In this document: piece after piece, positions 46,377 to 64,000 of the stretch
Layout of the letters: the number at the start of each line of letters is the position of its first letter
Position numbering within the stretch: position 1 is the first letter of the stretch
From: a virus
Virus record (IMG/VR): IMGVR_UViG_3300013372_003978
Coordinates: 1-64,000 of that record
Strand: one strand, 5' to 3'
DNA: 64,000 bases
The notes under the pieces: model-generated
Told to the model about the DNA's origin: nothing
Databases searched by the model: none
The model's input: only the letters and a program-made list of their open reading frames with translations
Program-made: the position numbers and the translations under genes

Positions 46377-47372
46377 ATGAAAACAAAAAACAAATTTGAT
46401 TTTAACGATGTTTTAATACAACCTGCTAAAGTATCGTCTATTAGTAGTAGAAAAGATATAAACCCATTTTACGATGGGTTTTTACCATTAATAACAGCAC
46501 CTATGGATACCGTTGTTAATGAAAAAAATAATCCATTGTTTACATTATTAAACATAAGAACATGTTTACCTAGAGGTGAAGAAAATCAATATGGTTTCAC
46601 ATCATACTCTTTAGTTGAAATAGAAACTAATTTTCTTATGTTAGACCCTAAAGGTATGTATCTAATTGATATTGCAAATGGTCATATGGAAAAATTGGTA
46701 ATTGTAATAAAAAGAATTAAAAGAAAATACCCAAAACTTATATTAATGGTTGGTAATATTGCTAATCCTCAAACTTATATTGTTTTATCTAAGGCAGGTG
46801 CTGATTATGTTAGAATTGGTATTGGCAATGGTGGTGGTTGTAGTACAACGGTTCATACTGGTGTAGGTTACCCAATGGGTTCTCTTGTATCTGAATGTTA
46901 TTTTGAATCGTGTAAACTTAAAAAACCAGCTAAGATTGTTGCTGATGGTGGTATGCAAAATTATGGTGATATAATTAAAGCTTTAGCATTAGGTGCTGAT
47001 TATGTTATGGTAGGTAGTCTTTTTAATAAAGCAATTGAATCCTGTGGTGATAATTACCTTTGGAAAAAAGTAAAAGTATGTCAAGGAATTGCTGAATGGG
47101 CATATAAAAATAAAATACCTGTCTATAAAAAATTTAGAGGTATGAGTACTAAAGAAGTTCAAAAAAAATGGGGTAAAGAAGAACTAACAACTTCAGAAGG
47201 TGTTGTTAGATTCAGACGAGTAGAATACACACTTCAACAATGGGTTGAAAATTTTGAATCTTATTTACGTTCAGCAATGAGTTATTCAAATGCTAAAACT
47301 CTAGAAGAATTTATCGGAATTGCCGATACAATACAAATAACAAATAACGCTTATAAAAGATTTAATAAATAA
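46377..47372 (+). CDS. IMP dehydrogenase/GMP reductase family protein without CBS domains
   Basis: FDFNDVLI.P, TAPMDTV, IDIANGH, GIGNGGGCSTT (catalytic Cys), ADGG, GADYVMVG, FRGMS, EG and LRSAMSY. Start at ATG 46377. Confidence 0.9.
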   Translation: MKTKNKFDFNDVLIQPAKVSSISSRKDINPFYDGFLPLITAPMDTVVNEKNNPLFTLLNIRTCLPRGEENQYGFTSYSLVEIETNFLMLDPKGMYLIDIANGHMEKLVIVIKRIKRKYPKLILMVGNIANPQTYIVLSKAGADYVRIGIGNGGGCSTTVHTGVGYPMGSLVSECYFESCKLKKPAKIVADGGMQNYGDIIKALALGADYVMVGSLFNKAIESCGDNYLWKKVKVCQGIAEWAYKNKIPVYKKFRGMSTKEVQKKWGKEELTTSEGVVRFRRVEYTLQQWVENFESYLRSAMSYSNAKTLEEFIGIADTIQITNNAYKRFNK

Positions 47373-49021
47373 TGTTAACAGTAATATATTGCACAAGAGA
47401 AACTAAACCAGAACATAAAGAACACTTAATTAAGTCATCTGGTCTTCATAAACACATCGAGGTTATCGAAATAATCAATAATGGTGAATCACTAACCAAA
47501 GCGTATAATCGTGGCTTAAAACAAGCAGAATACAAACATGTAGTTTTTTGTCATGATGATATTACAATTGAAACAAAACAATGGGGTGTTAAATTGCTTA
47601 AACAATTTGAGAAAAATCCTGAATACGCTATCATTGGTGTTGCTGGTAGTAAAAATATGCCAGTATCTGGTCAATGGTGGGAAAAACGTAATAAAATGTA
47701 TGGTCGTGTTCAACATACACATGAAGGTAAAACATGGTTATCAGCTTATAGTGATGATTTAGGTCAAGAACTAGAAGAAGTTATTAATGTTGATGGTGTT
47801 TTCTTTGCTGCCGATATAACTAAATTGGAAAAGAATTTTAATGAAAGTGTTGAAGGATTCCATTTCTATGATGTTACGTTTTGTTTTGAAAACTATTTAG
47901 CTGGGGCTAAGGTAGGTGTTACAACTGCTGTTAGAGTTAATCACCAATCAATTGGTATGACCAATGAGCAATGGGAAAGTAATAGAGAGATTTTTGCCGA
48001 AACATTTAAAGATAATTTACCAGTAGATATTAAAAGAGTATTACGTAAGGGTGAAAAATTAAAAGTTCTTATTGGTTGTTTAAGTTTTACTGATTATACT
48101 GGTTCAGAACTTTATACTTTTGAATTAGCAAAACAATTAATTAAAGAAGGTTGTGATGTTAGCATTTCTTCTACTATTGGTATGCCATTGAGTGGTTTGG
48201 CTAACAAATTAGGTATTAAATTGTTTTCTTTACAAGAACCACCTGGTTATAAATTAGGTGATGGTAAATGGTTATTAAAAACACAACAAGGTGATATTCC
48301 TAGCGTAGCAAATACTTTATATAAAGTAAGTGATGTACAGTTTGATGTTATTCATTTAAACCATAAACCAGTTACTGAACATATATTACGTTTATATCCA
48401 GAAACACCAGTAATTTGTTCAATACATTCAGAAGTTATTTCTTTGGAAGAACCTGTAGTTTCTGACCAAATTAAGAAATATATCGCAATTAGACCTGAAA
48501 TTAAAGAATATATTGTTGATAGATTTAATATTGATGCTGAAAAGGTTGATGTTATATTCAATCCAATAGATACTGATAAATTTAAAGAAATTAATTCAAC
48601 AGAAAAAAGAAATAAAAAACGTATATTATTTGTTGGAACTATTGATTATTTAAGAAAAGCAATGATTCAAGATTTAATCAATACAACAAAAGAGAATGAC
48701 CAAGAGTTATGGATAGTTGGTAAAAAGAATGATACATATTTAGATGAAATTATTCAAAATGAATCACATGTTAGTTATTTTGAACCAACACTTAATATTG
48801 AAAAATTCATTCACCAATGTGATGAAACAGCTGGTATTCTTTTAGGTAGAACAACTGTTGAAGGTTGGTTATGTGGTAAAAATGGTTGGATTTACGATGT
48901 GGATTCAAGCGGTAATATCAAATCAAAAGCTTTACACGAAATTCCTAGTGATATTGATAAATTCAAAAGTGGTAATGTTGTTAAACAAATAATAGAAGAA
49001 TATAAACAAATTCTAGAATAA
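47372..49021 (+). CDS. Bifunctional glycosyltransferase (GT-A N-domain plus GT-B C-domain)
   Basis: AYNRGL..A....VFCHDD, VDGVF and FHFYD, followed by TGSELY, N.ID..KF, ILFVGT and GRT..EG. Confidence 0.85.
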   Translation: MLTVIYCTRETKPEHKEHLIKSSGLHKHIEVIEIINNGESLTKAYNRGLKQAEYKHVVFCHDDITIETKQWGVKLLKQFEKNPEYAIIGVAGSKNMPVSGQWWEKRNKMYGRVQHTHEGKTWLSAYSDDLGQELEEVINVDGVFFAADITKLEKNFNESVEGFHFYDVTFCFENYLAGAKVGVTTAVRVNHQSIGMTNEQWESNREIFAETFKDNLPVDIKRVLRKGEKLKVLIGCLSFTDYTGSELYTFELAKQLIKEGCDVSISSTIGMPLSGLANKLGIKLFSLQEPPGYKLGDGKWLLKTQQGDIPSVANTLYKVSDVQFDVIHLNHKPVTEHILRLYPETPVICSIHSEVISLEEPVVSDQIKKYIAIRPEIKEYIVDRFNIDAEKVDVIFNPIDTDKFKEINSTEKRNKKRILFVGTIDYLRKAMIQDLINTTKENDQELWIVGKKNDTYLDEIIQNESHVSYFEPTLNIEKFIHQCDETAGILLGRTTVEGWLCGKNGWIYDVDSSGNIKSKALHEIPSDIDKFKSGNVVKQIIEEYKQILE

Positions 49022-51457: not shown

Positions 51458-52200
51458 TGGAAAATTTTACAATTGCAATAACAACATTTGCTAAAAGATA
51501 TAATTACATTGTTAATTTAATACCACAAATTAGAAATTACAGTGATAATAAAATCCTATTGATTATCAACGGTGAAAAGGATGGTGATTTTGATGAAGAA
51601 TATAGAAAAAACATTCTAGAACTATGTGCTAAGTACAATAATGTATATCCAATTATGTTTGTTGAAACTAGAGGTTTATGTAAAATGTGGAACACTGGTT
51701 TAATTATGTCAGATAAAGAAGATGTTTTAATACTTAATGATGATATTGAAATCCTTTCTGGTGATATTGTTAAGTATGTATCTTCACATATTAAATCGCC
51801 AGAATATAAAGGATTAACTAAAATTAACGGTTCTTTTTCTCATTTTGTGACTAATAAAGTTATCATGGATAAACTTGGTTATTTTGATGAACGATTATTA
51901 GGTTTTGGTGAAGAAGATGGTGATATTTCTTATAGATTTATTAAAGCAGGTATTAATATAAATAACATTTATATTAATGGTATCATTAATATAGTTTCTA
52001 ATATAAGACATGAACACATAACAGCTGGTATTGGTAAATACTCTAATTTTAATCGTCAATTTATTTATGGTGAAAAATATTCAGTGGATATGTCTAGCCC
52101 TTATAAAGGTATGTTTGATACACCAATGAATCAAAACTTAGAAGACATCAATCAATACCCACATGAAAATTTTTTTAGAGAAAATAAAGATAAATTGTAA
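51457..52200 (+). CDS. GT2-family glycosyltransferase
   Basis: WNTG, ILNDD and GYFDER..GFGEEDGD motifs. Confidence 0.85.
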   Translation: MENFTIAITTFAKRYNYIVNLIPQIRNYSDNKILLIINGEKDGDFDEEYRKNILELCAKYNNVYPIMFVETRGLCKMWNTGLIMSDKEDVLILNDDIEILSGDIVKYVSSHIKSPEYKGLTKINGSFSHFVTNKVIMDKLGYFDERLLGFGEEDGDISYRFIKAGININNIYINGIINIVSNIRHEHITAGIGKYSNFNRQFIYGEKYSVDMSSPYKGMFDTPMNQNLEDINQYPHENFFRENKDKL

Positions 52201-53411
52201 TGGAGATAAAGCAAATCACTGAAATTAATAAAACAGATATCTCAAAACTATTTGAAAAAGATTCTAATGGTCGAGAAATTAACATTTATGAATTAAGGGA
52301 TTCAATGGTTACTGGTGAATCCTTATATTATCCAAATACGTTATTATATAATGGGTCTTTATATAACCCAATAAACGAAACAACTATGTCATTAAAAAAT
52401 GTTGAGGTTGATGATAATTTTAATTTTACATTAAAAAAACCAATTAAAACCGAAGAAAAGTCGGTTTTTTTCTTTATATATAATATGGATAATTATTTTC
52501 ATTTTGTTTATGATTCGTTGCCATATTTAATAACCTTTAACAAAATAAAAGAAACTAACCCAGAAACTAAGTTACTAATGAATTACCCTGCTGGCAAAAA
52601 TCGATTCTATAAATTTGTTTTAGAATTTTTAGATATATTGGGTATTAGAGAAGATGATATCATTATTGCTGATGAAAATACAAATTATAAGAAGGTTTAT
52701 ATTTCAACATCTTACACACATGATTTTGATTCAAATTTACCACCTAGAAATGAAATATATGATTTTTACCAAGAAATAATTGATAAAGTAAAAATAGATG
52801 ATACTGATTTACCTAAAAAGATTTACATTTCTAGAAGAAGTTGGTTACATGGTGATATGAGCAATATTGGTACTAACTATACTACTAGACGTAAATTAGT
52901 TAATGAAGATGAATTAGTTAAATTTTTGATGAGCAAAGGATACCAAGAAATTTTTACCGAAACCTTTACAACTGAACAAAAAATAGCTATATTTAAAAAT
53001 GCTGAAAGTGTGGTTGGTGCTATTGGTGGTGGAATTTGTAATGTTTTGTTTTCTAAACCAGAATGTAAATTAACTGCATTAATTTCACCATATTTTTTAG
53101 ATGTTAATGAACGTTTTAAATATTCATTAAACAAAGTTAATTTAACGTTATTTGACGATGTTAAAAACACTGAAACTACGGTATTTAAAAAATATATGAG
53201 AGTTAAATGTAATGATATTATTGGGGAAATAATAGACATACAAAATGATGACATAACAATAACTTACAGTGATGTTAAATTAGCTGGTTGGAATAGTGAA
53301 AATGAATATAAAACAATAACGAAAAAAACTTATGAGTGTGTTAGATTAGATGAAGGGTTAAATTCATCGTGGAAAATAAACTTAGATAAACTTAAAGAAT
53401 TTTATGATTAA
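52200..53411 (+). CDS. GT61/DUF563-family glycosyltransferase
   Basis: NYFHF..D.LP, KIYISRR, RRKLVNEDE and F..A..VVG..GGG..N.LF motifs. Confidence 0.82.
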   Translation: MEIKQITEINKTDISKLFEKDSNGREINIYELRDSMVTGESLYYPNTLLYNGSLYNPINETTMSLKNVEVDDNFNFTLKKPIKTEEKSVFFFIYNMDNYFHFVYDSLPYLITFNKIKETNPETKLLMNYPAGKNRFYKFVLEFLDILGIREDDIIIADENTNYKKVYISTSYTHDFDSNLPPRNEIYDFYQEIIDKVKIDDTDLPKKIYISRRSWLHGDMSNIGTNYTTRRKLVNEDELVKFLMSKGYQEIFTETFTTEQKIAIFKNAESVVGAIGGGICNVLFSKPECKLTALISPYFLDVNERFKYSLNKVNLTLFDDVKNTETTVFKKYMRVKCNDIIGEIIDIQNDDITITYSDVKLAGWNSENEYKTITKKTYECVRLDEGLNSSWKINLDKLKEFYD

Positions 53412-54210
53412 TTATGTTGTTTATGGAAATACAGATTATTTGGATGTTTTAGAAATTCAAACTGATTACATATATGGTCGTGGTAATATTACATTATTTT
53501 TAAATAATAATGATTTAGAAATACAAAACCTAACATCAAAATATGATAGGATAATATATTACAATAATGATGATACATACGCTAAAAGATTATTATCCTG
53601 TATTCAACAAATAAAAGATGATTATTTTTTATTTTTACACGATATTGATGTTTTATTAAATGTTGATGATAAAATGATTAATAAATTTTATGATTTTTTA
53701 AGGGTTAATAATTTTGATAGAATTGATTTAAAACATTCTGATAATAAAATATCAAACCTAATTATTGAATATAATCCAGATAATAAACCTAGTGAATGGG
53801 AACCTAAATTATCTGAAGAATTAACAGATGGCCTTTATCTAATAAAACAAGATAATCCAAATGATTACATTTATAATGTTAACCCATCAATATGGAAAAA
53901 AGATTCATTTATTAAATTGCTAAGTAATTTTACACATAAAAATTATAGAACAATAGAAGAAATGGATGTGCAATTATTTTCAAAACAATTTAAGGTTTTT
54001 AAATTAACTGCTAATACTAAAAAATTATGTGGATATTTTAATTGTGTTGACGGATTTCAATTTTTACATATTAGTCACAGTGGTAAATTATTACCATTGA
54101 ATAAAAATTTTGTGACAACATATGGTCAATCATACGTAGATATAAGTGATGAATACATTAAAATAGTAGATAAATACAACCTAACGAAATCAAATAAGTG
54201 GATAATATAA
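53404..54210 (+). CDS. Putative GT-A-like protein, paralog of 55128..55940
   Basis: FLFLHDIDVL (DxD), FDRIDL and YIYNVNPSIWK motifs. Confidence 0.65.
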   Translation: MINYVVYGNTDYLDVLEIQTDYIYGRGNITLFLNNNDLEIQNLTSKYDRIIYYNNDDTYAKRLLSCIQQIKDDYFLFLHDIDVLLNVDDKMINKFYDFLRVNNFDRIDLKHSDNKISNLIIEYNPDNKPSEWEPKLSEELTDGLYLIKQDNPNDYIYNVNPSIWKKDSFIKLLSNFTHKNYRTIEEMDVQLFSKQFKVFKLTANTKKLCGYFNCVDGFQFLHISHSGKLLPLNKNFVTTYGQSYVDISDEYIKIVDKYNLTKSNKWII

Positions 54211-55127: not shown

Positions 55128-55940
55128 ATGATACAATACGAAGTTCACAAACATGTTAACCATGATACTTTAAGTGATGGTCTTGTAAATTATGTAATTT
55201 ATAGTCATTCTAGTTTTTTGGATGTGTTAAATATTCAACTAGATTATATAATTGGTAAGGGTCATTTAACATTGTTTATAGATGAAAATAACCATGACTT
55301 AACTCATATTTATAAAAAATTTGATAGGGTTGTTTTTTATAATGGTAATCTTACTTATGGTAATAAACTTTTAAGTTGTTTAAATCAAATTGATTATGAT
55401 TATTTTGTTTTCATACACGATAATGATATTCTTTACAATGTAGATAATCAAAAAATGTTAGAGTTTATAGATTTTTTAAGAGTTAATGACTACGATAGAG
55501 TTGATTTCCAATTAGCTTATGATTTTAATAGAGAACTTAGCCATACAATTGAAGATGATGGCTTATATCTAATTAAATCATCTAATATAGACACAACAGC
55601 AAACGGATACATCTACAACGTTAACCCATCAATTTGGAAATTAGAAACATTAAAAAAAATAATGCAAACATATAGTCATAGAGATTATAGAACAATAGAA
55701 CATCCAGAAGTACAAGAATTTTGTTTACAATTTAATATTTTTAAACTGTATTCTAAAAAACAATACAATTGTGGATATTTCATTTGTTTGGAACCTTTTA
55801 AATATCTACACATAACACATAGCCAACATTATCTTAATCTAGCTAGTTTATCAAAAGAATCGTATAAAGATATTGAAGAAGTGTACGAAATAATAATCAA
55901 CAAATATAAGTTAAGAAATTCTAACAAATGGATAAATTAA
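55128..55940 (+). CDS. Putative GT-A-like protein, paralog of 53404..54210
   Basis: FVFIHDNDIL, YDRVDF and YIYNVNPSIWK motifs. Confidence 0.65.
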   Translation: MIQYEVHKHVNHDTLSDGLVNYVIYSHSSFLDVLNIQLDYIIGKGHLTLFIDENNHDLTHIYKKFDRVVFYNGNLTYGNKLLSCLNQIDYDYFVFIHDNDILYNVDNQKMLEFIDFLRVNDYDRVDFQLAYDFNRELSHTIEDDGLYLIKSSNIDTTANGYIYNVNPSIWKLETLKKIMQTYSHRDYRTIEHPEVQEFCLQFNIFKLYSKKQYNCGYFICLEPFKYLHITHSQHYLNLASLSKESYKDIEEVYEIIINKYKLRNSNKWIN

Positions 55941-57603: not shown

Positions 57604-59058
57604 ATGAGGGTTGCATTACTAATAGCTGGATATTTAAGAAGTTATGAAACAAATATTAAATACATTCATGATGAAATCATTAATAAATTTAATGATGTTG
57701 ATATATATTTGCACATAACTAAAGATGAAAATACTGAAGATAAATACTTTAATCAAATTCAAGAAACAGATATTAAAAAAATAATCGACACATTAAATCC
57801 AACAACAACAATAATAGAAAACAATATTGTTTATAACCCTGATAAAAGAATTAATAATGTTATGAATCATTGGGGTAAATTATATAAATTAAACCAACTT
57901 AAATCAATTAAAGAAAATGAAACATCTAATTATGATTTGGTTATTAGATATCGATTAGATTTAAATATACTTTCTAAAAACGTTTTTAATTTTGATTTAG
58001 AAAAGGGTGTTATTTATCTACCTAAAGATGCTAAGATTGATAAAGTTAAATTAACTAACCCAAACGATAAATATTTATGTGATGCGTTTGCTTTTGGTGA
58101 TTCTGAATCAATGGATAAGTATTTTAATATCTATAGTTATTATGGTAATCATATGTTACCAGTTTCAGAAACTGCTTTATATGATTACTTAACAAAAAAC
58201 AAAATAAACCATAAATTAATTAATATAAATTATAATTTTGTTTTATCTAAATGCAATGTTTTTGCTATCTGTGGTGATTCTGGTTCTGGAAAATCCACAC
58301 TAAGTAATTTATTGAAAAATGGTTATAGTGATTCATTTATGTTAGAATGTGATAGATACCATAAATGGGAAAGACATAATGAAAATTGGGATGGAATGAC
58401 TCATTTAAATCCAGAAGCTAACTACATAACAAAAATGGAAGAAGATATCTTCAATTTAAAACTTGGAAATGATATTTATCAGGTTGATTATGACCATCAT
58501 AGCGGTAAATTTACTGAAAAACAATTAATCAATCCATCAGATAATTTAATTGTTTGTGGTTTACATAGTTTATATGGTGATAATAACTTATATGATGTTA
58601 AAATATTTATGGATACTGATGATTCTCTTAAGAAAAAATGGAAAATTAAACGTGATGTAATTGAACGTGGTTATACTGTAGATAAAGTATTAAATAGTAT
58701 AGAAAAAAGACAAAACGATTTTCAAGAATATATCACACCACAAAAAGATAATGCTGATTTAATAATTAAATTTTTTACTAGAGATATTATTGATTTTAAT
58801 GATTTTGAAAGAGAAGAAAAATTAAGTTTGGAGGTTTCAATTAACAATAAATGTAAAAATCTGAACTATATTTTAAGAACTTTTAACGATTTAAATATTG
58901 ATTATACTATTATCAATGATGATAAATTTACCAAAATAATCTTTGATGAATATGTTGAATTAAACGTGGTAGATAGAAAAATTTTTAACAACAGTAAAAC
59001 GAACACATTTTACGATTATATTTTATATTTTATTTTTTCCCTTAACTTTACTAATTAA
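57604..59058 (+). CDS. Fusion of a putative glycosyltransferase-like N-domain and a phosphoribulokinase/uridine-kinase domain
   Basis: N-domain: VALLIAG.LR, YDLVIRYRLD, DAFAFG...MDKY. C-domain: P-loop GDSGSGKST, DRYH, P.AN, YDHHSG, GLH, WKIKRDV.ERG and PQK..AD (PRK-like). Confidence 0.82.
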   Translation: MRVALLIAGYLRSYETNIKYIHDEIINKFNDVDIYLHITKDENTEDKYFNQIQETDIKKIIDTLNPTTTIIENNIVYNPDKRINNVMNHWGKLYKLNQLKSIKENETSNYDLVIRYRLDLNILSKNVFNFDLEKGVIYLPKDAKIDKVKLTNPNDKYLCDAFAFGDSESMDKYFNIYSYYGNHMLPVSETALYDYLTKNKINHKLININYNFVLSKCNVFAICGDSGSGKSTLSNLLKNGYSDSFMLECDRYHKWERHNENWDGMTHLNPEANYITKMEEDIFNLKLGNDIYQVDYDHHSGKFTEKQLINPSDNLIVCGLHSLYGDNNLYDVKIFMDTDDSLKKKWKIKRDVIERGYTVDKVLNSIEKRQNDFQEYITPQKDNADLIIKFFTRDIIDFNDFEREEKLSLEVSINNKCKNLNYILRTFNDLNIDYTIINDDKFTKIIFDEYVELNVVDRKIFNNSKTNTFYDYILYFIFSLNFTN

Positions 59059-59077
59059 TTTTATTTTCGTATATTTG
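59047..59077 (+). promoter_or_regulatory. Bacteroidota-type promoter (TTTA-N19-TATATTTG)
   Basis: -7 box at 59070-77, ending 3 nt before the ATG at 59081. Confidence 0.6.
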
Positions 59078-59080
59078 CAT

Positions 59081-60208
59081 ATGGAAAATAAAATTAGAAA
59101 AAATTGTATCTTTTGTGAAAATGAACTAAGAAAAGATTTTTTTAGTAATGATTTAAACAACTATGTTGCTCACTACTCAGTAAATCAAGACGCTAATAAT
59201 GATGATATGCAAAACATACCTTTTAATGTTTGTGTATGTGATTATTGTAAAACTCCACAATTAAAATATTTAGGCGATTTAAATGAAATTTATAAACTTA
59301 ACCATGCTGATAGTACTGGTAAGATTATGAATAGTTTACACCGTGAAAACTTATCATTAATTTTAAAATATAAAGATTCAATAACTAACATTATTGAAAT
59401 AGGAAGTTCTAAAGGTATCTTAGCTGACGAAGTAATTAAAAACATTGATTTAACTTATTATATAATAGAACCTAGTTATTTTGGTGACATTAATGATAAG
59501 AAAATTATAATCCCAGACTTTTATGAAAATGTGGATGATTCAGTAATAAATGCTAATACTATGGTTATATCACATGTGTTTGAACATTTTTACCAACCAA
59601 TGGAGATTCTAAATAAAATAAGTAATAATAAAAAGATTGAAAATTTCTTTTTAGTTTTTCCTGATTTAGAATACTACATAAATAATGATGTTTTACATGT
59701 CTTAAATACCGAACATACATTTTATGTCGATAATCAATTTTTAATTAATTTATTAAAACATGTTGGTTTTGATTTGATAGAGCAAAGAAACCATGAAAAC
59801 CATTCAGTATTGTTCTATTTTAAAAGAAATGACTCTGAAATTAATAACAATAAAATCGATTTTAAAAATACCAATTATGATTTGGATATATACTATTCAA
59901 AAATAAAAAATACTGTTGATAAATTCAACACTGTTATGTACAAAAATAAAGATAAAGAAATCTATCTTTGGCCAGCATCTATCCATTCATTATATTTATT
60001 AAATTTTGGTCTAAAAATAGAAGGTGTGACTGGATTTTTAGATAATAGTAAACTTAAAATTGGTAAGAAAATGTATGGAACCAATTTAACTGTTTTTGAT
60101 TTTAAAGATAAAGTTACTGAAAAAGATGACAATGTTATTATCCTAGTAAGTGGTGGGGTGTTCAATCGTGAAGTTCAACATCAATTAACAATAAATAAAA
60201 GTATTTAA
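59081..60208 (+). CDS. SAM-dependent methyltransferase, NDP-sugar C-methyltransferase-like
   Basis: Two CxxC pairs (CIFC, CDYC), IEIGSSKG, SHVFEH, EH.FY and C-terminal LDNS.LKIGK.MYGT. Start at ATG 59081. Confidence 0.8.
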   Translation: MENKIRKNCIFCENELRKDFFSNDLNNYVAHYSVNQDANNDDMQNIPFNVCVCDYCKTPQLKYLGDLNEIYKLNHADSTGKIMNSLHRENLSLILKYKDSITNIIEIGSSKGILADEVIKNIDLTYYIIEPSYFGDINDKKIIIPDFYENVDDSVINANTMVISHVFEHFYQPMEILNKISNNKKIENFFLVFPDLEYYINNDVLHVLNTEHTFYVDNQFLINLLKHVGFDLIEQRNHENHSVLFYFKRNDSEINNNKIDFKNTNYDLDIYYSKIKNTVDKFNTVMYKNKDKEIYLWPASIHSLYLLNFGLKIEGVTGFLDNSKLKIGKKMYGTNLTVFDFKDKVTEKDDNVIILVSGGVFNREVQHQLTINKSI

Positions 60209-60209
60209 T

Positions 60210-60887
60210 ATGAATATGGTTAAAATAACTAATAATTTAATATCCCTATCTAAAGCCATATCAAAGTACTGTGTTGGTATGGAAGGTAATATATCTGGCA
60301 AAATAGATGGAAATTCTTTTTTAATAAAAGCCAGTGGTCAAAATTTATCAAATTTAAAAGAGGATGGTCTAGTAGAATTCTCAATGGATGGTATTCAATT
60401 AAATAACCCAGATAAAAAAGGTAGCATGGAATTAACTTTCCATACTTTTTTATTAGGGTTTGAAGATATTAATTACATATCACATACACACCCAACAAAC
60501 ACTTTAAAAATTTTATGTACCAATTACGCAAATGATTTTGCTAATAAGCGATTATTTCCAGACCAAGTAGTTTTTAATGGTGTTAAAGCATGTTTAGTTC
60601 CTTATGCTAAACCTGGTGAAAAATTAACTGAATTAATTAAACAACACATTAATTGGTTCATTGAAGAAGAAAAATATTTTCCAAAATTAATTTTATTAAA
60701 AAACCATGGTATTATTGCGTGTGGTAATTCTATTAATGAATGTATCATTGCTACTGATATTTGTGAAAAAGCTGCAAAAATTTTTATTGGGGGTATTGGA
60801 TTAGGTGATATACATTTTTTAAGTGATAAAGAAATAAATGATTTAATTATTGATGATAATGAAAAATATAGAAAAAATTTATTATGA
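60210..60887 (+). CDS. Class II aldolase/adducin family protein (FucA/AraD/RhaD-like)
   Basis: EGNIS, IKASG, SME..FH, HTHP and LL.NHGII..G motifs. Confidence 0.88.
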   Translation: MNMVKITNNLISLSKAISKYCVGMEGNISGKIDGNSFLIKASGQNLSNLKEDGLVEFSMDGIQLNNPDKKGSMELTFHTFLLGFEDINYISHTHPTNTLKILCTNYANDFANKRLFPDQVVFNGVKACLVPYAKPGEKLTELIKQHINWFIEEEKYFPKLILLKNHGIIACGNSINECIIATDICEKAAKIFIGGIGLGDIHFLSDKEINDLIIDDNEKYRKNLL

Positions 60888-61630
60888 AAACAGAAGGAAT
60901 AAGTTTAGGGTGGAATTGTTCTGCCGCTCAGGATGGTCTTAAATTAGGTTTAAGGAATACAAAAAGTAATGGGTATAAAACATGTCCGTTTGATATGATG
61001 ATAACCAATTATGTGGGTATGTGTAAATGTATTGAAGATGATTTTAAATACTTTTGCGACCCAAATTATTTAGAACTAAGAAAAGCCCCTAAAATGTCTC
61101 CACATATCCCAAATCAAAAAGATGATGAAATGTGGGTTTTTAATTCTTATTATAATTTTTATTTTAATCATGAATCACCATATCATGGTAATCTTTATTT
61201 AAATGAGCAATGGAGTGGACCAAACCATTTTGTCAATAACAATTTTGAAAAATTCGTTGAAAGGTATGAAAGACGAATTAATAATTTTAGGGGGTATATG
61301 ACTGGTTTAGAACTAGTTAATTTTATCGTATGGCGTTATAACGCAATACCTTATGAATTAGTGGATATTATTAAAGAAAAATACCCTAATTTAAATTTTA
61401 AAGTTAATACTATTATAGATTTTGGTAGACATACTGTTGATTGTTTAATAACTAACACACCAGAAGCTTCAAAAGAATATGAAATGGATTATCTTAGATA
61501 TATGAACATAACTGAAAATGAATACCCAGAAGAATTTTCCAGGTATAGAAATGAATTAATAACTAAGGATATTAAAAATGATGAACATATCATTTTAATT
61601 TATCCAACTAAAATCTCTAGTTTAAACTAA
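60884..61630 (+). CDS. DUF1796-like (putative papain-like) protein
   Basis: ISLG.NC..A.....GLR......PFD, F.HE and RY.RRI.NF motifs. Confidence 0.6.
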   Translation: MKTEGISLGWNCSAAQDGLKLGLRNTKSNGYKTCPFDMMITNYVGMCKCIEDDFKYFCDPNYLELRKAPKMSPHIPNQKDDEMWVFNSYYNFYFNHESPYHGNLYLNEQWSGPNHFVNNNFEKFVERYERRINNFRGYMTGLELVNFIVWRYNAIPYELVDIIKEKYPNLNFKVNTIIDFGRHTVDCLITNTPEASKEYEMDYLRYMNITENEYPEEFSRYRNELITKDIKNDEHIILIYPTKISSLN

Positions 61631-61929
61631 TGAAAACAAGAATAATTTACGTAGACATTGATGAAACTATTTGTGAAACACCAGAACCTAGAAACTATTT
61701 TAATGCTGAACCGATAAAAGAAAATATCGCTAAAATTAATGAGTTGTATGATGAAGGTAACACAATAGTTTATTGGACTGCTCGTGGTAGTAGAACACAA
61801 ATTAATTGGTATGATTTAACTAAACAACAATTGATTGAATGGGGTGCGAAACACCATGAATTAAATGTAAGTAAACCATACTATGATTTGTTTATTGATG
61901 ACAAAACACTTAGAATTGAAGAAATATGA
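61630..61929 (+). CDS. Small capless HAD phosphatase (capsule-biosynthesis BcbF/EcbF-like)
   Basis: YVDIDETIC (DxD), WTARG and KP.YD.FIDDK motifs. Confidence 0.85.
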   Translation: MKTRIIYVDIDETICETPEPRNYFNAEPIKENIAKINELYDEGNTIVYWTARGSRTQINWYDLTKQQLIEWGAKHHELNVSKPYYDLFIDDKTLRIEEI

Positions 61930-62849
61930 AAAATAAAAAAATAATACTTATCCCACCAAATTTAGCATATGGTGATTGCTTATCCGTTATAGGATTAGTT
62001 TATTATTTGCTAGAATATTATGAATCAGTTTATTTTTATTTGGGTGAAACTGATACTTTATTAAATTATTATTCTGATTATTTTTCTAATGACCCATTAT
62101 ATAATCAAAGGATTTTTATTGTTGTAAAACCAGAAATTTTAATTAATAATGGTGAATATGGTGAATATCATATATGTAATACTTTAACTGGTGATTGGTT
62201 ATCGGCAAAAACTAATTATGCTGAACTTCCAAATATCAATAAAGAGTTTTACTTCAATGATTTAAATCCAATTTATAATAAATTAAAAATTCCTAACGAA
62301 CATTTATGTTTACCTAATAAACATTTACCTTCTTTAGAGTTGGAAATTAATCATTTATTTTATTATGAATTGATTGGTTTAAACAATAACGTTAGAATGG
62401 ATTACTTCAATTATGAAAGAAATTTACAAAAAGAACGGATGTTTAAAAATCAAATACTTGCAAATTATGGTTTAGAACCTAATAGCAAATATAATATAAT
62501 AAACGACCCTACAGGACAATTTAATGAAATCATACCTTACATTAAAAATGGGTTTAAAACAATTAACATTAACTTTTTAGCACCTAGTATTGGTAATTTA
62601 TTAACTTTGTTGGAAGAAGCTGAAAGCATACATTTTATTGAAGGATGTAACGTTAACTTTTTTTATCATTGTCAATATAAGAATATTTTTAAATATGATA
62701 AAAAAATATATTTTCATACTTGGGTTCGCAATAGACATTGGTTATATCCAAATATGAATTTAGATTACGCATGGAAAATGATGGATACACCAAAATTACT
62801 AAATTGGGAATTTATCTTTGATAAAAATGAAACACAAAATATAATTTAA
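61926..62849 (+). CDS. Hypothetical, possibly GT-B-like protein
   Basis: N-terminal GD...V.GLV and C-terminal LLEEAESIHFIEG resemble GT9-like motifs (weak). Confidence 0.55.
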   Translation: MKNKKIILIPPNLAYGDCLSVIGLVYYLLEYYESVYFYLGETDTLLNYYSDYFSNDPLYNQRIFIVVKPEILINNGEYGEYHICNTLTGDWLSAKTNYAELPNINKEFYFNDLNPIYNKLKIPNEHLCLPNKHLPSLELEINHLFYYELIGLNNNVRMDYFNYERNLQKERMFKNQILANYGLEPNSKYNIINDPTGQFNEIIPYIKNGFKTININFLAPSIGNLLTLLEEAESIHFIEGCNVNFFYHCQYKNIFKYDKKIYFHTWVRNRHWLYPNMNLDYAWKMMDTPKLLNWEFIFDKNETQNII

Positions 62850-62852
62850 AAT

Positions 62853-63344
62853 ATGAAATTAATATCCCATAGAGGAAATATAATCGGACCAAATTTAAAA
62901 AGAGAAAACTCACCATCATATATTGACACTGCAATATGTGCTGGTTATGATGTTGAAGTGGATATAAATTTTACAAATGGTAAATTTTATCTAGGTCATG
63001 ATACACCTGATTATGAAATAACTGAAATTTGGATGACTAAAAGAAAATATAACATATGGTTTCACTGTAAAAATTTAGAAGCTGCATCAGAGCTTATCAA
63101 ATTACAAAAAAAATATGATATAGAGTTTAAGTTTTTTTGTCATTCATCTGATTCTTTTATTTTAACTAGTAATGATTATATTTGGGTTCATGATTTATCC
63201 TTAGATTTAAATAACAAATGTATTATTCCATTATTAAGTGATACTGATGTTTTAAAATATAACGGTAAATTAGTTTATGGTGTGTGTACTGATTATATTA
63301 GTTTAGCAGCATTTAATTTAAAACAAAAAGGATTATACAAATAA
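62853..63344 (+). CDS. PLC-like/GDPD-like phosphodiesterase
   Basis: ISHRGN, EN.P, GYDVEVD, LGHD.P, HCKN and GVCTD motifs. Confidence 0.8.
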   Translation: MKLISHRGNIIGPNLKRENSPSYIDTAICAGYDVEVDINFTNGKFYLGHDTPDYEITEIWMTKRKYNIWFHCKNLEAASELIKLQKKYDIEFKFFCHSSDSFILTSNDYIWVHDLSLDLNNKCIIPLLSDTDVLKYNGKLVYGVCTDYISLAAFNLKQKGLYK

Positions 63345-63349
63345 AAAAA

Positions 63350-64000
63350 ATGAATAAAAATATACAATTAATTATACCTATGTCTGGTGTTGGTAAACGT
63401 TTTATCGATGCTGGTTACGCTGATACTAAATCACTTATTATTGTCGATGGAAAACCAATAATTCAACACGTAGTTGAAATGTTTAATAGCCCTGATGATG
63501 TTATTTTCATTTGTAATGAAATACATTTAAGAGATACTAATATGAGAGAAATATTAGAATCAATATCGCCAAATTGTAAGATATTTTCTGTATCTAATGA
63601 GAATAGAAAAGGACCTGTTGATGCTGTTTATCAAATAGCTGAATATATCGATGACAATAGAGAAGTTATCGTTAGTTATTGTGATTATGGTACTTATTGG
63701 AATTACGACAAATTTTTAAAGGAAACTAGAGAAGCAAATTCTGATGGTGCTATTGCATGTTACACTGGATTTCATCCACACATGTTAGGTTCTGATAATT
63801 ATGCATTTGTTAAAATGGAAGATGATAAAGCAGTAGCGATTCAAGAAAAAAAACCTTTCACTGATAATAAAATGGCTGAATTAGCTTCTAATGGTACTTA
63901 TTATTTTAAAACTGGACGTATAGTAAAAGATAAGTTTAAAGAATTAATAGATTTAAACCATTCATTAAATAATGAATTTTATGTTAGTTTAGTTTATAAT
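63350..64000 (+). CDS. Partial sugar-phosphate nucleotidyltransferase (NTP_transferase fold), runs off window end
   Basis: Translated by hand: MNKNIQLIIPMSGVGKRFIDAGY..K.LI.VDGKPII.HV...SYCD...EKK....ASNGTYYF. Not in the ORF track because it has no stop. Confidence 0.88.
   Translation, partial: MNKNIQLIIPMSGVGKRFIDAGYADTKSLIIVDGKPIIQHVVEMFNSPDDVIFICNEIHLRDTNMREILESISPNCKIFSVSNENRKGPVDAVYQIAEYIDDNREVIVSYCDYGTYWNYDKFLKETREANSDGAIACYTGFHPHMLGSDNYAFVKMEDDKAVAIQEKKPFTDNKMAELASNGTYYFKTGRIVKDKFKELIDLNHSLNNEFYVSLVYN

What the first reader, a model, noticed from the sequence alone, without database searches (positions are those of the whole stretch)
57604..64000. Candidate novel ketose (pentulose/fructose)-nucleotide pathway built around a GT-like::phosphoribulokinase fusion
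Seen: a domain with plant/cyanobacterial PRK-type motifs (GDSGSGKST, DRYH, YDHHSG, WKIKRD..ERG, PQK..AD; ~58255-58790) fused behind a GT-like domain. It clusters with a class II aldolase/epimerase, a BcbF-like HAD, a PLC-like enzyme and an IIPM.G.G.RF...GY nucleotidyltransferase. Known: PRK acts on ribulose-5-P, the class II aldolase family includes ribulose-5-P 4-epimerase, and BcbE/BcbF-type genes occur in capsule loci with fructose branches. Inference: the steps would be epimerase, ketose-phosphate kinase, phosphatase and nucleotidyltransferase, then transferase, giving an activated ketofuranose. That would be a non-Calvin role for a PRK fold.
Basis: partly seen in the sequence, partly recalled or inferred. 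Interest (0 to 1): 0.75.

Follow-up and report, generated by a model that had tools for sequence, protein, structure and literature searches.

The report
Phage sugar pathway built on phosphoribulokinase
A very large phage carries a tightly packed, widely conserved set of enzymes, centred on a Calvin-cycle-type kinase fused to a sugar-transferase-like domain, that most likely turns ribulose 5-phosphate into an unusual activated sugar for building glycans; no studied pathway works this way.

Summary
ORF 57604-59058 (484 aa) is a real, soluble fusion of a GT-A-fold domain (remote DUF7796) and a complete class II phosphoribulokinase. Every Ru5P-binding or catalytic residue named in the PRK papers I read is invariant in 66 aligned homologues. 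The kinase groups with PRKs, not uridine kinases.

It sits in a conserved cassette: GT61, GT-A::PRK, class II aldolase-fold enzyme, capless HAD, minimal GDPD-fold protein and tandem nucleotidyltransferase. Among 28 kinase lineages with enough flanking DNA, each family is present in 25-27.

Gene fusions in other viral contigs link all the parts: PRK::aldolase, HAD::aldolase, HAD::NTase and PLC-like::NTase. A homologous cassette with GtrA/GtrB-like genes lies on E. coli, Hirschia and Azospirillum plasmids. Its HAD best matches the haloarchaeal RuBP 5-phosphatase.

Two complete cyanophage genomes carry the cassette without any PRK, which fits the host supplying RuBP.

Best reading: Ru5P to RuBP to ribulose-1-P, then a remodelled, nucleotide-activated pentulose-type sugar passed to glycosyltransferases. 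The early steps rest on homology; the product is inferred.

Earlier notes of this scan describe the bacterial cassette on other DNA with the same reading. I found nothing in print.

The parts
52200..53411 (+). GT61-family glycosyltransferase (403 aa), the transferase most constantly linked to the cassette
   Evidence: Pfam PF04577, E 8.6e-18, 65.3 bits against a cut-off of 27. Found in 51 of 59 viral loci and in 26 of 28 lineages with >= 6 kb on both sides. 37% identical to S-SM2 SSM2_205.
57604..58248 (+). N-terminal GT-A-fold domain (aa 1-215; remote DUF7796) of the fusion protein
   Evidence: VIA-align: Z 12.4 (4cj8 BoGT6a, 187 aligned, rmsd 3.7), 12.2 (3zf8 Mnn9), 11.2 (SpsA), 10.3 (PBCV-1 A64R). 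GlmU and IspD score 10.3-10.7. PHROG 13607, E 1e-13. 6 of 10 distant homologues scanned reach the DUF7796 cut-off, and 4 of those are fused to SAM methyltransferases. No hydrophobic segment.
58258..59058 (+). Complete class II phosphoribulokinase domain (aa 219-484)
   Evidence: PF00485, E 9.1e-33. NF005655 181 bits against udk 76 bits. PDB 6hzk E 2e-33 against uridine kinase 9e-8. VIA Z 22.9 (9qko), 21.5 (5b3f) and 19.6 (6h7g) over about 260 residues reaching residue 483-484. Active-site residues invariant in 66 sequences.
59075..60208 (+). Methyltransferase-like ORF (377 aa, TTG start); a variable insert, not core
   Evidence: Methyltransf_23 at 23.2 bits and C-methyltransferase C-terminal domain at 20.1 bits, both below their cut-offs. 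Homologues in only 3 of 59 loci.
60210..60887 (+). Class II aldolase/epimerase-fold metal enzyme (225 aa)
   Evidence: PF00596, E 4.2e-25. No NCBIfam equivalog reaches its cut-off; the best is 55.6 bits. In 24 distinct homologues these are conserved: G26 N27 S29, K40 S42 G43, S72 E74, H92 H94, H166. Present in 25 of 28 lineages. Fused to PRK in L058/L059 and to HAD_2 in L022/L040/L043.
60884..61630 (+). DUF1796 protein (248 aa); a variable insert
   Evidence: PF08795, E 1.3e-10. Found in 7 of 59 loci.
61630..61929 (+). Minimal capless HAD phosphatase (99 aa)
   Evidence: TIGR01689 EcbF-BcbF, E 1.2e-7 (31.7 bits, cut-off 162). PHROG 1238, E 1.7e-29. D9, D11, T13, T50, K82, D86 and D91 conserved in 26 distinct homologues. 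In the 28 lineages it never occurs together with the HAD_2 type (21 against 5).
61926..62849 (+). 307-aa protein of unknown family, often present
   Evidence: No Pfam or NCBIfam hit. Homologues in 34 of 59 loci.
62853..63344 (+). Minimal GDPD-fold protein (163 aa)
   Evidence: AF2 pLDDT 95.3. VIA ranks 2-23 are nearly all GDPD or PLD: Z 12.0 for 1vd6 (148 aligned, rmsd 3.0), then a drop to 7.5. H6 R7 N9 E18 E35 D37 H49 D50 invariant in 24 sequences. hhalign to the bacterial PLC-like family: 69.8% probability, E 4e-5.
63350..64000 (+). N-terminal part of a tandem two-domain sugar-phosphate nucleotidyltransferase (527 aa; ends at contig position 64933, outside the window)
   Evidence: PF00483, E 2.7e-13 on the full protein. 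41% identical over its full length to the E. coli plasmid protein, E 6e-154. Both halves keep PM.G.G.RF..K, D and WGTP.D in 36 distinct sequences.

Best explanation
The 484-aa protein is a soluble two-domain enzyme: a GT-A-fold domain joined to a full class II phosphoribulokinase. It belongs to a conserved phage cassette made of a GT61 transferase, GT-A::PRK, a class II aldolase-fold metal enzyme, a small HAD phosphatase, a minimal GDPD-fold protein and a tandem nucleotidyltransferase. The cassette makes an unusual nucleotide-activated five-carbon sugar.

Proposed route:
1. The kinase phosphorylates ribulose 5-phosphate at C1 to give ribulose 1,5-bisphosphate. This is inferred from the conserved active site.
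2. The HAD removes the 5-phosphate to give ribulose 1-phosphate, which can close to a furanose. This is inferred from homology of the HAD_2 variant to the haloarchaeal RuBP 5-phosphatase.
3. The aldolase-fold enzyme remodels the ketose 1-phosphate, most likely by epimerisation towards a xylulose-type sugar. This is inference.
4. The GDPD-fold protein and the tandem nucleotidyltransferase turn it into the nucleotide-linked donor. This is inference.
5. The GT-A domain, GT61 and neighbouring transferases use the donor on a phage or host glycan.

The PRK fold therefore works outside carbon fixation here.
For: Kinase:
- NF005655 (cyanobacterial/plant PRK) scores 181 bits against uridine kinase at 76 bits.
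- PDB: Synechococcus PRK 6hzk E 2e-33 against uridine kinase E 9e-8.
- The whole PRK fold, including the C-terminal sheet, is matched at Z 22.9-19.6 and Foldseek E 3e-17.
- Tree: the 4 uridine kinases are split off (SH-aLRT 99), and 34 of 35 viral kinases form one clade on the PRK side.
- CrPRK R64, Y103, H105, R159, D160, R164 and T. elongatus K142, D146 (passages) align with phage R257, Y296, H298, R350, D351, R355, K347. All are invariant in 66 sequences.

Cassette:
- Of 28 kinase lineages with >= 6 kb on both sides: GT61 26, aldolase 25, any HAD 26, any GDPD/PLC-like 27, NTase 27.
- Fusions: PRK::aldolase and HAD_2::NTase in L058/L059; HAD_2::aldolase in L022/L040/L043; PLC-like::tandem NTase in L040/L049.

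Bacterial counterpart:
- It lies on three plasmids together with GtrA and a GtrB-like GT2.
- NTase 41% identical (E 6e-154); kinase 30% identical (E 7e-42).

RuBP as intermediate:
- The HAD_2 of all 3 bacterial and 3 viral fused forms best matches NF053830, RuBP 5-phosphatase, at 140-190 bits.
- That enzyme gives cyclised Ru1P, which is then handled by a FucA-type enzyme encoded in the same operon (PMC9700705, passages).
- Cyanophages S-SM2 and Bellamy have the rest of the cassette. Neither complete genome (0 of 2) has a PRK-family match over the cut-off.
Against: - No step has been assayed, and the product is unknown.
- The phage kinase is below the NF005655 cut-off (181 against 236), and only the first 206 of 326 profile positions are matched by sequence.
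- The window's own HAD is the 99-aa capless type, not the RuBP-phosphatase-like HAD_2. Capless HADs usually take large substrates (my own knowledge), so dephosphorylation could follow transfer.
- All matches to NF053830 are below its cut-off of 330.
- The aldolase-fold protein matches no equivalog. Its best hits are spread over decarboxylase, epimerase, aldolase and dehydratase models.
- A 1-phosphate on a ketose is not anomeric, so an ordinary sugar-1-P nucleotidyltransferase step does not give a glycosyl donor without further chemistry.
- 2 of the 28 lineages (L048, L051) show no HAD of either type.
- The tree has few references: 2 class II and 2 class I Calvin PRKs, with no cyanobacterial or plant rows. 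The fork among the PRK groups is unresolved.
Confidence: 0.6

Rival explanations
1. The nucleotidyltransferase puts NMP on the C1 phosphate of the ketose (or of a derivative), giving a CDP-ribitol-like or CDP-glycerol-like donor. A pentulose-1-phosphate unit is then transferred as a phosphodiester, teichoic-acid style, with the GDPD-fold protein handling that phosphodiester.
For: - The 1-phosphate made by PRK is not anomeric.
- The NTase gives weak IspD and MobA-like hits (PF12804 E 8.7e-11; PF01128 25.1 bits, below its cut-off).
- The GDPD fold is a phosphodiester enzyme fold. Rank 10 is the GDPD domain of phage K gp155.
- The PLC-like domain is fused to the NTase in L040 and L049.
Against: - The bacterial cassette always has a GtrB-like GT2 and GtrA (3 of 3 plasmid loci). 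To my knowledge these use anomeric NDP-sugars to load polyprenyl phosphate.
- The phage cassette keeps GT-A and GT61 glycosyltransferase folds.
- No TagF-, LicD- or Stealth-type phosphotransferase was seen among the Pfam hits of the window genes scanned.
Confidence: 0.15
2. The kinase does not act on free Ru5P. It acts on a sugar phosphate already attached to a glycan or lipid by its fused transferase domain, and the capless HAD later trims the attached phosphate.
For: - The kinase is fused to a transferase-like domain in both lineages: GT-A in phages, and a polytopic membrane domain with 9-12 hydrophobic segments in the three bacterial proteins.
- The window's HAD is a 99-aa capless type.
Against: - All residues that hold Ru5P in PRK are invariant.
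- Stand-alone kinases (L055, L057) and a PRK::aldolase fusion (L058) exist.
- The HAD_2 variant resembles a small-molecule RuBP phosphatase.
- The cyanophage cassettes lack the kinase but keep the stand-alone GT-A domain.
Confidence: 0.12
3. It is an auxiliary metabolic gene for carbon metabolism. Either it is a phage PRK that feeds RuBP to host RuBisCO, or it is a catabolic shunt as in haloarchaea: Ru5P to RuBP to Ru1P to DHAP plus glycolaldehyde.
For: - The kinase is a full class II PRK.
- A HAD plus a FucA-type pair is exactly the haloarchaeal non-carboxylating pentose bisphosphate pathway.
Against: - It is fused to a GT-A domain and embedded among glycosyltransferases.
- It is constantly linked, and elsewhere fused, to a nucleotidyltransferase and a GDPD-like protein.
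- The two cyanophages, whose hosts fix CO2, lack the kinase but keep the rest.
- The P-loop cysteine of the redox pair is serine (GDSGSGKST against GDSGCGKST).
Confidence: 0.06
4. It is a uridine/cytidine kinase for nucleotide salvage, as JGI's automatic name says.
For: The JGI name 'uridine kinase' appears on many homologues. The Pfam family PF00485 covers both enzymes.
Against: - udk models score 76 and 64 bits, against cut-offs of 180 and 220.
- PDB uridine kinases score E 9e-8 against 2e-33 for PRK.
- The C-terminal PRK sheet is present.
- The tree separates the udk rows with support 99.
Confidence: 0.03

Closest known systems
Class II (plant/cyanobacterial/archaeal) phosphoribulokinase, e.g. 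Synechococcus PRK 6hzk, Methanospirillum PRK 5b3f
   Same: The whole fold, including the C-terminal sheet (Z 19.6-22.9). The P-loop. The Ru5P-phosphate ligands and catalytic Arg-Asp..Arg loop are invariant.
   Different: - Fused behind a GT-A domain.
- No P-loop cysteine of the redox pair.
- Below the NCBIfam cut-off (181 against 236).
- Lies in a glycan cluster with no RuBisCO nearby.
- Forms its own viral clade.
Non-carboxylating pentose bisphosphate pathway of haloarchaea (RuBP 5-phosphatase and Ru1P aldolase; PMC9700705)
   Same: A HAD and a class II aldolase-fold enzyme encoded together and acting after RuBP. The HAD_2 of the bacterial and some viral cassettes best matches NF053830.
   Different: - That pathway is catabolic and is fed by R15P isomerase, not by PRK.
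- It has no nucleotidyltransferase, GDPD-like protein or glycosyltransferases.
- The window uses a different, 99-aa HAD.
- Scores are below the equivalog cut-offs.
Nucleotide-heptose synthesis (kinase, HAD phosphatase GmhB, nucleotidyltransferase) - recalled, not tested here
   Same: The logic of sugar phosphate, then bisphosphate, then removal of the distal phosphate, then nucleotidyl transfer.
   Different: - Different kinase fold (PRK, not PfkB/GHMP).
- The kinase's target carbon is not anomeric.
- There are extra aldolase-fold and GDPD-fold enzymes, and a tandem nucleotidyltransferase.
Bacterial Gtr-linked cassette with a membrane-domain::PRK fusion (E. coli p5-S1-CAM-01-A, Hirschia baltica pHbal01, Azospirillum brasilense p5); uncharacterised, and noted before in this scan
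   Same: The same five enzyme families. NTase 41% identical and kinase 30% identical. The PLC/GDPD-like proteins share HR.N / E.D / HD motifs.
   Different: - In bacteria the kinase is fused to a polytopic membrane domain and the cassette has GtrA plus a GtrB-like GT2.
- The phage has a soluble GT-A fusion, GT61, a capless HAD and a shortened GDPD.
Fructose side-chain genes bcbE/bcbF/bcbG of the Pasteurella multocida type B capsule (PMC13552107)
   Same: The window's HAD gives its best NCBIfam hit to the EcbF-BcbF phosphatase model. That system adds a ketofuranose: bcbE and bcbG mutants lack fructose (abstract and passages).
   Different: - The hit is weak (31.7 bits against a cut-off of 162).
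- bcbF itself could not be mutated in that study.
- I had no BcbE or BcbG sequence, so their relation to the phage genes is untested.

Membership tests
Class II phosphoribulokinase (PF00485; NCBIfam NF005655) | Walker A P-loop and Pfam family score over the cut-off | tested here: met
   PF00485: 114.2 bits against a cut-off of 22; GDSGSGKST.
Class II phosphoribulokinase (PF00485; NCBIfam NF005655) | Ru5P phosphate ligands and catalytic loop (CrPRK R64, Y103, H105, R159, D160, R164) | tested here: met
   They align to R257, Y296, H298, R350, D351, R355 (with numbering). All are invariant in 66 homologues.
Class II phosphoribulokinase (PF00485; NCBIfam NF005655) | Full fold with the C-terminal sheet domain | tested here: met
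   VIA Z 22.9 (9qko, 260 aligned, model 214-483); 21.5 (5b3f); 19.6 (6h7g).
Class II phosphoribulokinase (PF00485; NCBIfam NF005655) | Score over NCBIfam's curated cut-off for the PRK subfamily | tested here: not met
   181.4 bits against a cut-off of 236; profile positions 10-206 of 326 matched.
Class II phosphoribulokinase (PF00485; NCBIfam NF005655) | ATP-dependent phosphorylation of Ru5P to RuBP | not testable with these tools
   Needs an enzyme assay.
Uridine/cytidine kinase | Score over the udk equivalog cut-offs, and grouping with udk in a tree | tested here: not met
   75.8 bits against 180, and 63.7 against 220.3. The udk rows are separated with SH-aLRT 99.
GT-A glycosyltransferases (N-domain) | GT-A Rossmann-like fold | tested here: met
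   Z 12.4-10 to many GT-A enzymes over residues 1-215. Nucleotidyltransferases of the same fold class score 10.3-10.7.
GT-A glycosyltransferases (N-domain) | DxD metal/nucleotide motif (recalled as the usual signature) | tested here: inconclusive
   After strand 112-116 the invariant residues are R117 and D119 (R-x-D), not D-x-D. Metal-independent GT-A enzymes exist (my own knowledge).
Class II aldolase/epimerase superfamily (PF00596) | Pfam score over the cut-off; His triad, Glu and phosphate pocket | tested here: met
   89.1 bits against a cut-off of 22.2. H92, H94, H166, E74, N27, S42-G43 are conserved in 24 homologues. The roles of these residues are recalled from FucA/AraD.
Class II aldolase/epimerase superfamily (PF00596) | Membership of a specific equivalog (AraD, FucA, MtnB, OtnC, Ru1P aldolase) | tested here: not met
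   Best scores: OtnC 55.6 bits (cut-off 250), AraD-type 49.9 (251), Ru1P aldolase 40.9 (300).
HAD phosphatases, EcbF-BcbF subfamily (TIGR01689) | HAD motifs I-IV | tested here: met
   D9-x-D11-x-T13, T50, K82, D86/D91 are conserved in 26 homologues. The motif assignment is recalled.
HAD phosphatases, EcbF-BcbF subfamily (TIGR01689) | Score over the curated cut-off | tested here: not met
   31.7 bits against a cut-off of 162.
Glycerophosphodiester phosphodiesterase (GDPD) superfamily | GDPD TIM-barrel-type fold | tested here: met
   Z 12.0 (1vd6), 11.9, 11.8 ...; ranks 2-23 are nearly all GDPD or PLD; the next unrelated fold scores 7.5. Foldseek alone was weak, best E 4e-3.
Glycerophosphodiester phosphodiesterase (GDPD) superfamily | Sequence-family match (Pfam PF03009) | tested here: not met
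   No Pfam family at E <= 0.01. H6-R7, E18, E35-x-D37 and H49-D50 are invariant and resemble the GDPD signature as I recall it.
Sugar-phosphate nucleotidyltransferases (PF00483) | Pfam score over the cut-off; signature G-x-G-x-R loop | tested here: met
   50.5 bits against a cut-off of 21.2. Both halves keep the loop and a conserved Lys in 36 sequences.
Haloarchaeal RuBP 5-phosphatase (NF053830) | Score over the equivalog cut-off | tested here: not met
   It is the best family for 6 of 6 HAD_2 proteins of the cassette (140-190 bits), but the cut-off is 330. The window itself has no HAD_2.

The most novel reading that the evidence does not exclude
The cassette makes an anomerically activated ketopentofuranose (NDP-ribulofuranose or NDP-xylulofuranose) by chemistry not described for any sugar nucleotide.

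1. Ru5P is converted to RuBP, and the 5-phosphate is removed to give ribulofuranose 1-phosphate, with epimerisation by the aldolase-fold enzyme.
2. One half of the tandem nucleotidyltransferase adds NMP to the 1-phosphate.
3. The GDPD/PLC-like enzyme uses the neighbouring anomeric 2-OH to expel NMP and form a 1,2-cyclic phosphate, as PI-PLC and spider PLD do with their substrates.
4. Opening the ring leaves the phosphate on the anomeric C2.
5. The second nucleotidyltransferase half makes the true glycosyl donor.

This would explain three things: why the nucleotidyltransferase is double, why a phosphodiesterase fold is obligatory and sometimes fused to it, and how bacteria and phages put xylulose-type sugars into glycans.
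Probability: 0.15. Interest if true: 0.9.

Novelty: new variant of a known kind. Interest (0 to 1): 0.72.

Why it matters
- Phosphoribulokinase is treated as a signature enzyme of CO2 fixation. Here a full PRK is a dedicated part of glycan synthesis, in a family with over a thousand metagenomic members and a bacterial counterpart on plasmids. PRK genes in viromes and metagenomes should therefore not be read as carbon-fixation markers by default.
- The cassette would be a new route to an activated five-carbon sugar. It may be the missing donor pathway for ketopentoses such as xylulose in surface polysaccharides.
- It shows how phages swap the parts they need. The two cultured cyanophages examined drop the kinase, presumably because the host makes RuBP.
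- It is directly testable, because cultured carriers exist: Synechococcus phages S-SM2 and Bellamy, and an E. coli plasmid.

Tried and rejected
I used the search for related loci instead.
- tblastn of the fusion against cultured phages gave only 4 records, all kinase-only at 27-30% identity.
- The scan of one genome per species found 1 relative among 27 pattern matches (L022, a MAG). This used two peptide patterns only, so it is a lower bound.
- Literature searches found nothing on this enzyme set:
  - 'phosphoribulokinase' + phage + glycosyltransferase: 11 papers, none relevant except a C. coli gene table listing a 'HAD/phosphoribulokinase domain protein' in a capsule region.
  - Xylulose + capsule + Campylobacter (listing only).
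  - PRK + capsular polysaccharide + HAD (unproductive, since 'had' matched as the everyday verb).
  - NDP-xylulose and NDP-ribulose names: 2 papers, neither relevant.
  - PRK + GtrA: 1 irrelevant paper.
  - The library lacks most subscription journals. Supplements were not opened.
- The BcbE link could not be tested. No BcbE sequence was at hand, NCBIfam gave only generic sugar-1-P NTase models for the full NTase, and none of the 120 listed single-domain homologues carries such a name. The E. coli K-locus paper said nothing on function.
- The ESM Atlas gave only viral unnamed or DUF7796 clusters for the N-domain. For the 163-aa protein it gave a weak GDPD lead at 0.87.
- An HMM of the 163-aa family found no bacterial PLC-like protein at E < 1. 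Only pairwise BLAST (E 5e-5) and hhalign link the two families.
- Foldseek on the 163-aa model gave no match at E <= 0.001.
- The aldolase-fold protein could not be assigned to aldolase, epimerase, dehydratase or decarboxylase.
- The tree lacks cyanobacterial, plant and archaeal PRK rows, because no tool gave me those sequences. I left out 24 of the 59 viral loci (near-duplicates and short pieces) when building it.
- The GMD and GDP-fucose synthase identity of the two ORFs after the NTase is my reading of the translations. It is supported by blastp matches in related loci but was not profile-tested.
- The host of this phage is unknown. Its capsid's best matches are an uncultured 484-kb phage, a Microcystis phage and Flavobacterium phages, at 41-44% identity over 37-39% of the protein.

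Full report
WHAT IS THERE

The window is the first 64 kb of an 87,687-base IMG/VR virus contig with a CheckV completeness of 26. G+C is about 22-27% in this part. Downstream genes include a T4-type major capsid protein and baseplate-like proteins, so this is a very large tailed phage.

From about 43.9 kb to 66.9 kb on the contig, one strand carries a run of glycan genes. Nine ORFs from 56716 to the window end are separated by -4 to +16 bases.

The ORF of the finding, 57604-59058, is an uninterrupted 484-aa frame.

THE FUSION PROTEIN

Kinase half, by sequence:
- Pfam PRK (PF00485) matches aa 219-390, E 9.1e-33.
- NCBIfam ranks the cyanobacterial/plant PRK model NF005655 first (181.4 bits, below its cut-off of 236). 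Uridine kinase models follow at 75.8 and 63.7 bits, and the class I PRK model at 42.3 bits.
- Against solved structures, Synechococcus PRK 6hzk gives E 2e-33. The best uridine kinase gives E 8.7e-8.

Kinase half, by structure:
- An AlphaFold model built on 66 homologues has mean pLDDT 84.9 and pTM 0.69.
- It matches whole PRK structures over residues 214-484. VIA-align gives Z 22.9 (9qko), 21.5 (archaeal 5b3f), 19.6 (Chlamydomonas 6h7g) and 17.4 (class I 1a7j). Uridine kinases align over the core only, at Z 17.4 and 15.4. Foldseek gives E 3e-17.
- So the half that sequence profiles do not reach is still the PRK C-terminal sheet domain.

Active site:
- Passages of bioRxiv 10.1101/422709 name the Ru5P-phosphate ligands R64, R67 (not conserved), Y103 and H105, and the loop residues R159, D160 and R164 of Chlamydomonas PRK.
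- Passages of PMC6800369 give R50, K142 and D146 as equivalents in Thermosynechococcus.
- Counting along the HMMER alignment, these fall on phage R257, Y296, H298, K347, R350, D351 and R355.
- All of these are invariant in the 66-sequence alignment.
- The P-loop cysteine of the redox pair is serine.

Tree (46 kinase domains, quick IQ-TREE, LG+G4):
- References were 4 uridine kinases, 2 class I and 2 class II Calvin PRKs that lie beside RuBisCO genes, and 3 bacterial cassette kinases.
- The uridine kinases split off with SH-aLRT 99.
- 34 of 35 viral rows form one clade with support 99.
- The fork between that clade, class I PRK (a long branch), and the group of class II PRKs plus the bacterial cassette kinases is unresolved.

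N-terminal domain (aa 1-215):
- It has a GT-A fold: Z 12.4 to BoGT6a, 12.2 to Mnn9, 11.2 to SpsA, 10.3 to the chlorovirus A64R transferase. Nucleotidyltransferases of the same fold class score 10.3-10.7.
- An exhaustive profile-free search found 194 representatives at E <= 0.001.
- Of 10 distant ones scanned, 6 reach the cut-off of Pfam DUF7796, and 4 of these are fused to SAM methyltransferases.
- The domain also stands alone.
- 'GT-like' is thus right at the fold level. Transferase activity is not shown.

THE NEIGHBOURS

- 60210-60887 is a class II aldolase-fold protein (PF00596, E 4.2e-25). The metal histidines, the glutamate and the phosphate pocket are conserved in 24 homologues. No specific equivalog is reached.
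- 61630-61929 is a 99-aa capless HAD with all catalytic motifs. It gives a weak best hit to the EcbF-BcbF capsule phosphatase model.
- 62853-63344 is a minimal GDPD-fold protein: pLDDT 95.3; Z 12.0-8.5 to 22 GDPD or PLD entries, then 7.5 for unrelated barrels. H6, R7, E18, E35, D37, H49 and D50 are invariant.
- 63350 onward is a tandem nucleotidyltransferase of 527 aa. Both halves keep the same conserved motifs in 36 distinct sequences, including bacterial ones.
- 52200-53411 is a GT61 transferase.

IS THE SET A UNIT?

Two scans of IMG/VR returned 59 loci with a relative of the kinase, at 31-87% identity. Profile searches of their ORFs found:
- GT61 in 51
- aldolase in 48
- tandem NTase in 50
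- small HAD in 37
- the 163-aa protein in 39

Loci without the 163-aa protein carry a different, about 200-aa PLC/GDPD-like protein of the bacterial type (16 loci, E 1e-41 to 1e-63). Several loci without the small HAD carry a capped HAD_2 instead.

I collapsed the loci to 40 kinase lineages (>= 90% identity) and kept the 28 with at least 6 kb on both sides. The counts are:
- GT61 26
- N-domain 26
- aldolase 25
- any HAD 26
- any GDPD/PLC-like 27
- NTase 27

Gene order and strand vary between lineages, so this is more than inherited synteny.

Fusions tie the parts together:
- PRK::aldolase (479 aa) next to HAD_2::NTase (453 aa) in L058/L059.
- HAD_2::aldolase (about 555 aa) in L022, L040 and L043.
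- PLC-like::tandem NTase (749 and 738 aa) in L040 and L049.

BACTERIAL COUNTERPART

tblastn of the kinase half against plasmids found three non-Calvin loci:
- E. coli p5-S1-CAM-01-A
- Hirschia baltica pHbal01
- Azospirillum brasilense p5

As annotated by NCBI, each carries:
- a class II aldolase family protein
- a two-domain NTP transferase
- GtrA
- a GT2
- a 'PI-PLC/GDPD family protein'
- a 660-705-aa 'phosphoribulokinase/uridine kinase'
- a HAD hydrolase

Comparing the phage with the E. coli plasmid:
- NTase 41% identical over its full length (E 6e-154)
- kinase 30% identical (E 7e-42)
- aldolase E 1e-7
- GDPD-like E 5e-5; profile-profile comparison gives 69.8% probability over the motif-bearing 55 columns

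The bacterial kinases carry an N-terminal part with 9-12 hydrophobic segments. The phage protein has none.

The E. coli module occurs in 2 of 5426 complete E. coli genomes, on plasmids in both.

WHAT THE PATHWAY PROBABLY DOES

The HAD_2 proteins of all three bacterial cassettes, and of three viral HAD_2::aldolase fusions, have NF053830 (ribulose-1,5-bisphosphate 5-phosphatase) as their best NCBIfam family. Scores are 140-190 bits, with the next family at 91-130 bits; the cut-off is 330.

Passages of PMC9700705 show that this haloarchaeal HAD is specific for RuBP and gives cyclised ribulose 1-phosphate. Its gene forms an operon with a FucA homologue that acts on Ru1P.

A PRK with an intact Ru5P site, a RuBP-phosphatase-like HAD and a class II aldolase-fold enzyme, fused pairwise in various genomes, point to this sequence: Ru5P, then RuBP, then Ru1P, then a product of the aldolase-fold enzyme.

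A comparative point fits this:
- The cultured cyanophages S-SM2 and Bellamy carry NTase (46-47% identical), GT61, aldolase, small HAD, the mini-GDPD and a stand-alone DUF7796 domain.
- Neither complete genome has a PRK-family match over the cut-off. The best matches are 15.6 and 14.3 bits, in an unrelated 322-aa frame.
- Their hosts make RuBP themselves (my own knowledge), so the kinase would be dispensable.

What happens after Ru1P is inference.
- The constant presence of glycosyltransferase folds, and of GtrB/GtrA in bacteria, argues for a glycosyl donor.
- A ketose 1-phosphate is not anomeric, which leaves a gap.
- The obligatory GDPD/PLC-like enzyme and the doubled nucleotidyltransferase may fill that gap (see the novel case).
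- L058/L059 seem to have a single NTase domain, which weakens the two-transfer idea.

Confirmed:
- the observation
- the PRK grouping
- the co-occurrence
- the non-Calvin role

Not supported or not shown:
- The order 'epimerase first'.
- The fructose alternative.
- 'BcbE-like' could not be tested.

The statement that BcbE/F/G-type genes go with fructose branches is borne out for P. multocida type B: bcbE and bcbG mutants lack fructose, and BcbF is only predicted (PMC13552107, abstract and passages). The window's HAD, however, resembles BcbF only weakly.

PRIOR NOTES AND NOVELTY

After my own plasmid results, I read notes of this scan.
- Other agents have described the bacterial membrane-domain::PRK cassette on other genomes several times, with the same reading (Ru5P-derived, lipid-carried pentose; possibly xylulose).
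- One note mentions cyanophages.
- These are AI notes, not independent evidence.
- I checked the plasmid loci and the cyanophages myself. I did not test that the membrane domain is a GT-C fold.

In the searchable literature I found no description of the enzyme set. Subscription journals and supplements were not covered.

I rate it a new variant of a known kind. It is a nucleotide-sugar cassette, but it has an enzyme set and an entry metabolite that no characterised pathway uses.

VERDICT

- The fusion and the cassette are real, conserved and uncharacterised.
- Confidence in the general mechanism (a PRK-fed, RuBP/Ru1P-derived activated sugar for glycan synthesis) is 0.6.
- The identity of the sugar and the roles of the aldolase-fold, GDPD-fold and tandem NTase proteins are open.

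Noticed in passing
L074 (Synechococcus phage S-SM2, NC_015279.1 154113-159059) and L075 (phage Bellamy): Cultured cyanophages carry the cassette without any PRK: NTase, GT61, aldolase, small HAD, mini-GDPD and a stand-alone DUF7796 domain. The small HAD is annotated there as 'phosphoheptose isomerase', which looks like a mislabel carried by PHROG 1238.
   Followed up: yes
L040:17915-20164 and L049:4777-6993 (- strand): In two viral contigs the bacterial-type PLC/GDPD-like domain is fused to the N-terminus of the tandem nucleotidyltransferase (749 and 738 aa).
   Followed up: partly
window 59075-60208: A 377-aa ORF with a TTG start and sub-threshold hits to a SAM methyltransferase and to the C-terminal domain of sugar C-methyltransferases sits between the kinase and the aldolase. 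It occurs in only 3 of 59 related loci, so it may be a lineage-specific extra modification of the sugar.
   Followed up: partly
contig positions 64947-66877 (L002:2948-4878), just beyond the window: Two ORFs of 330 and 311 aa read like GDP-mannose 4,6-dehydratase and GDP-fucose synthase (my reading, not profile-tested). The Azospirillum plasmid cassette is also followed by gmd and a GDP-L-fucose synthase gene.
   Followed up: no
window 53404-54210 and 55128-55940: Two paralogous ORFs of 268 and 270 aa with no Pfam family. Homologues are present in 33 of 59 related loci, so they may be further transferases of the same glycan.
   Followed up: no
L006, L028, L037, L038, L041, L046, L053: Seven contigs carrying the phage-type fusion are named GVMAG (giant-virus MAG) in IMG/VR. 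Either the cassette also occurs in giant viruses, or large phage contigs were binned as such.
   Followed up: no
PMC3928612, gene table (BN865_07180): [quoted passage not shown] It sits next to capsular polysaccharide genes and a sialyltransferase-like gene, and may be another architecture of the same kinase-phosphatase pair.
   Followed up: no
window 47372-49021: A 549-aa protein combining a GT2-like domain (PF13712, E 1.5e-34) and a GT4 domain (PF13439, E 6e-12) lies upstream in the same glycan island.
   Followed up: no
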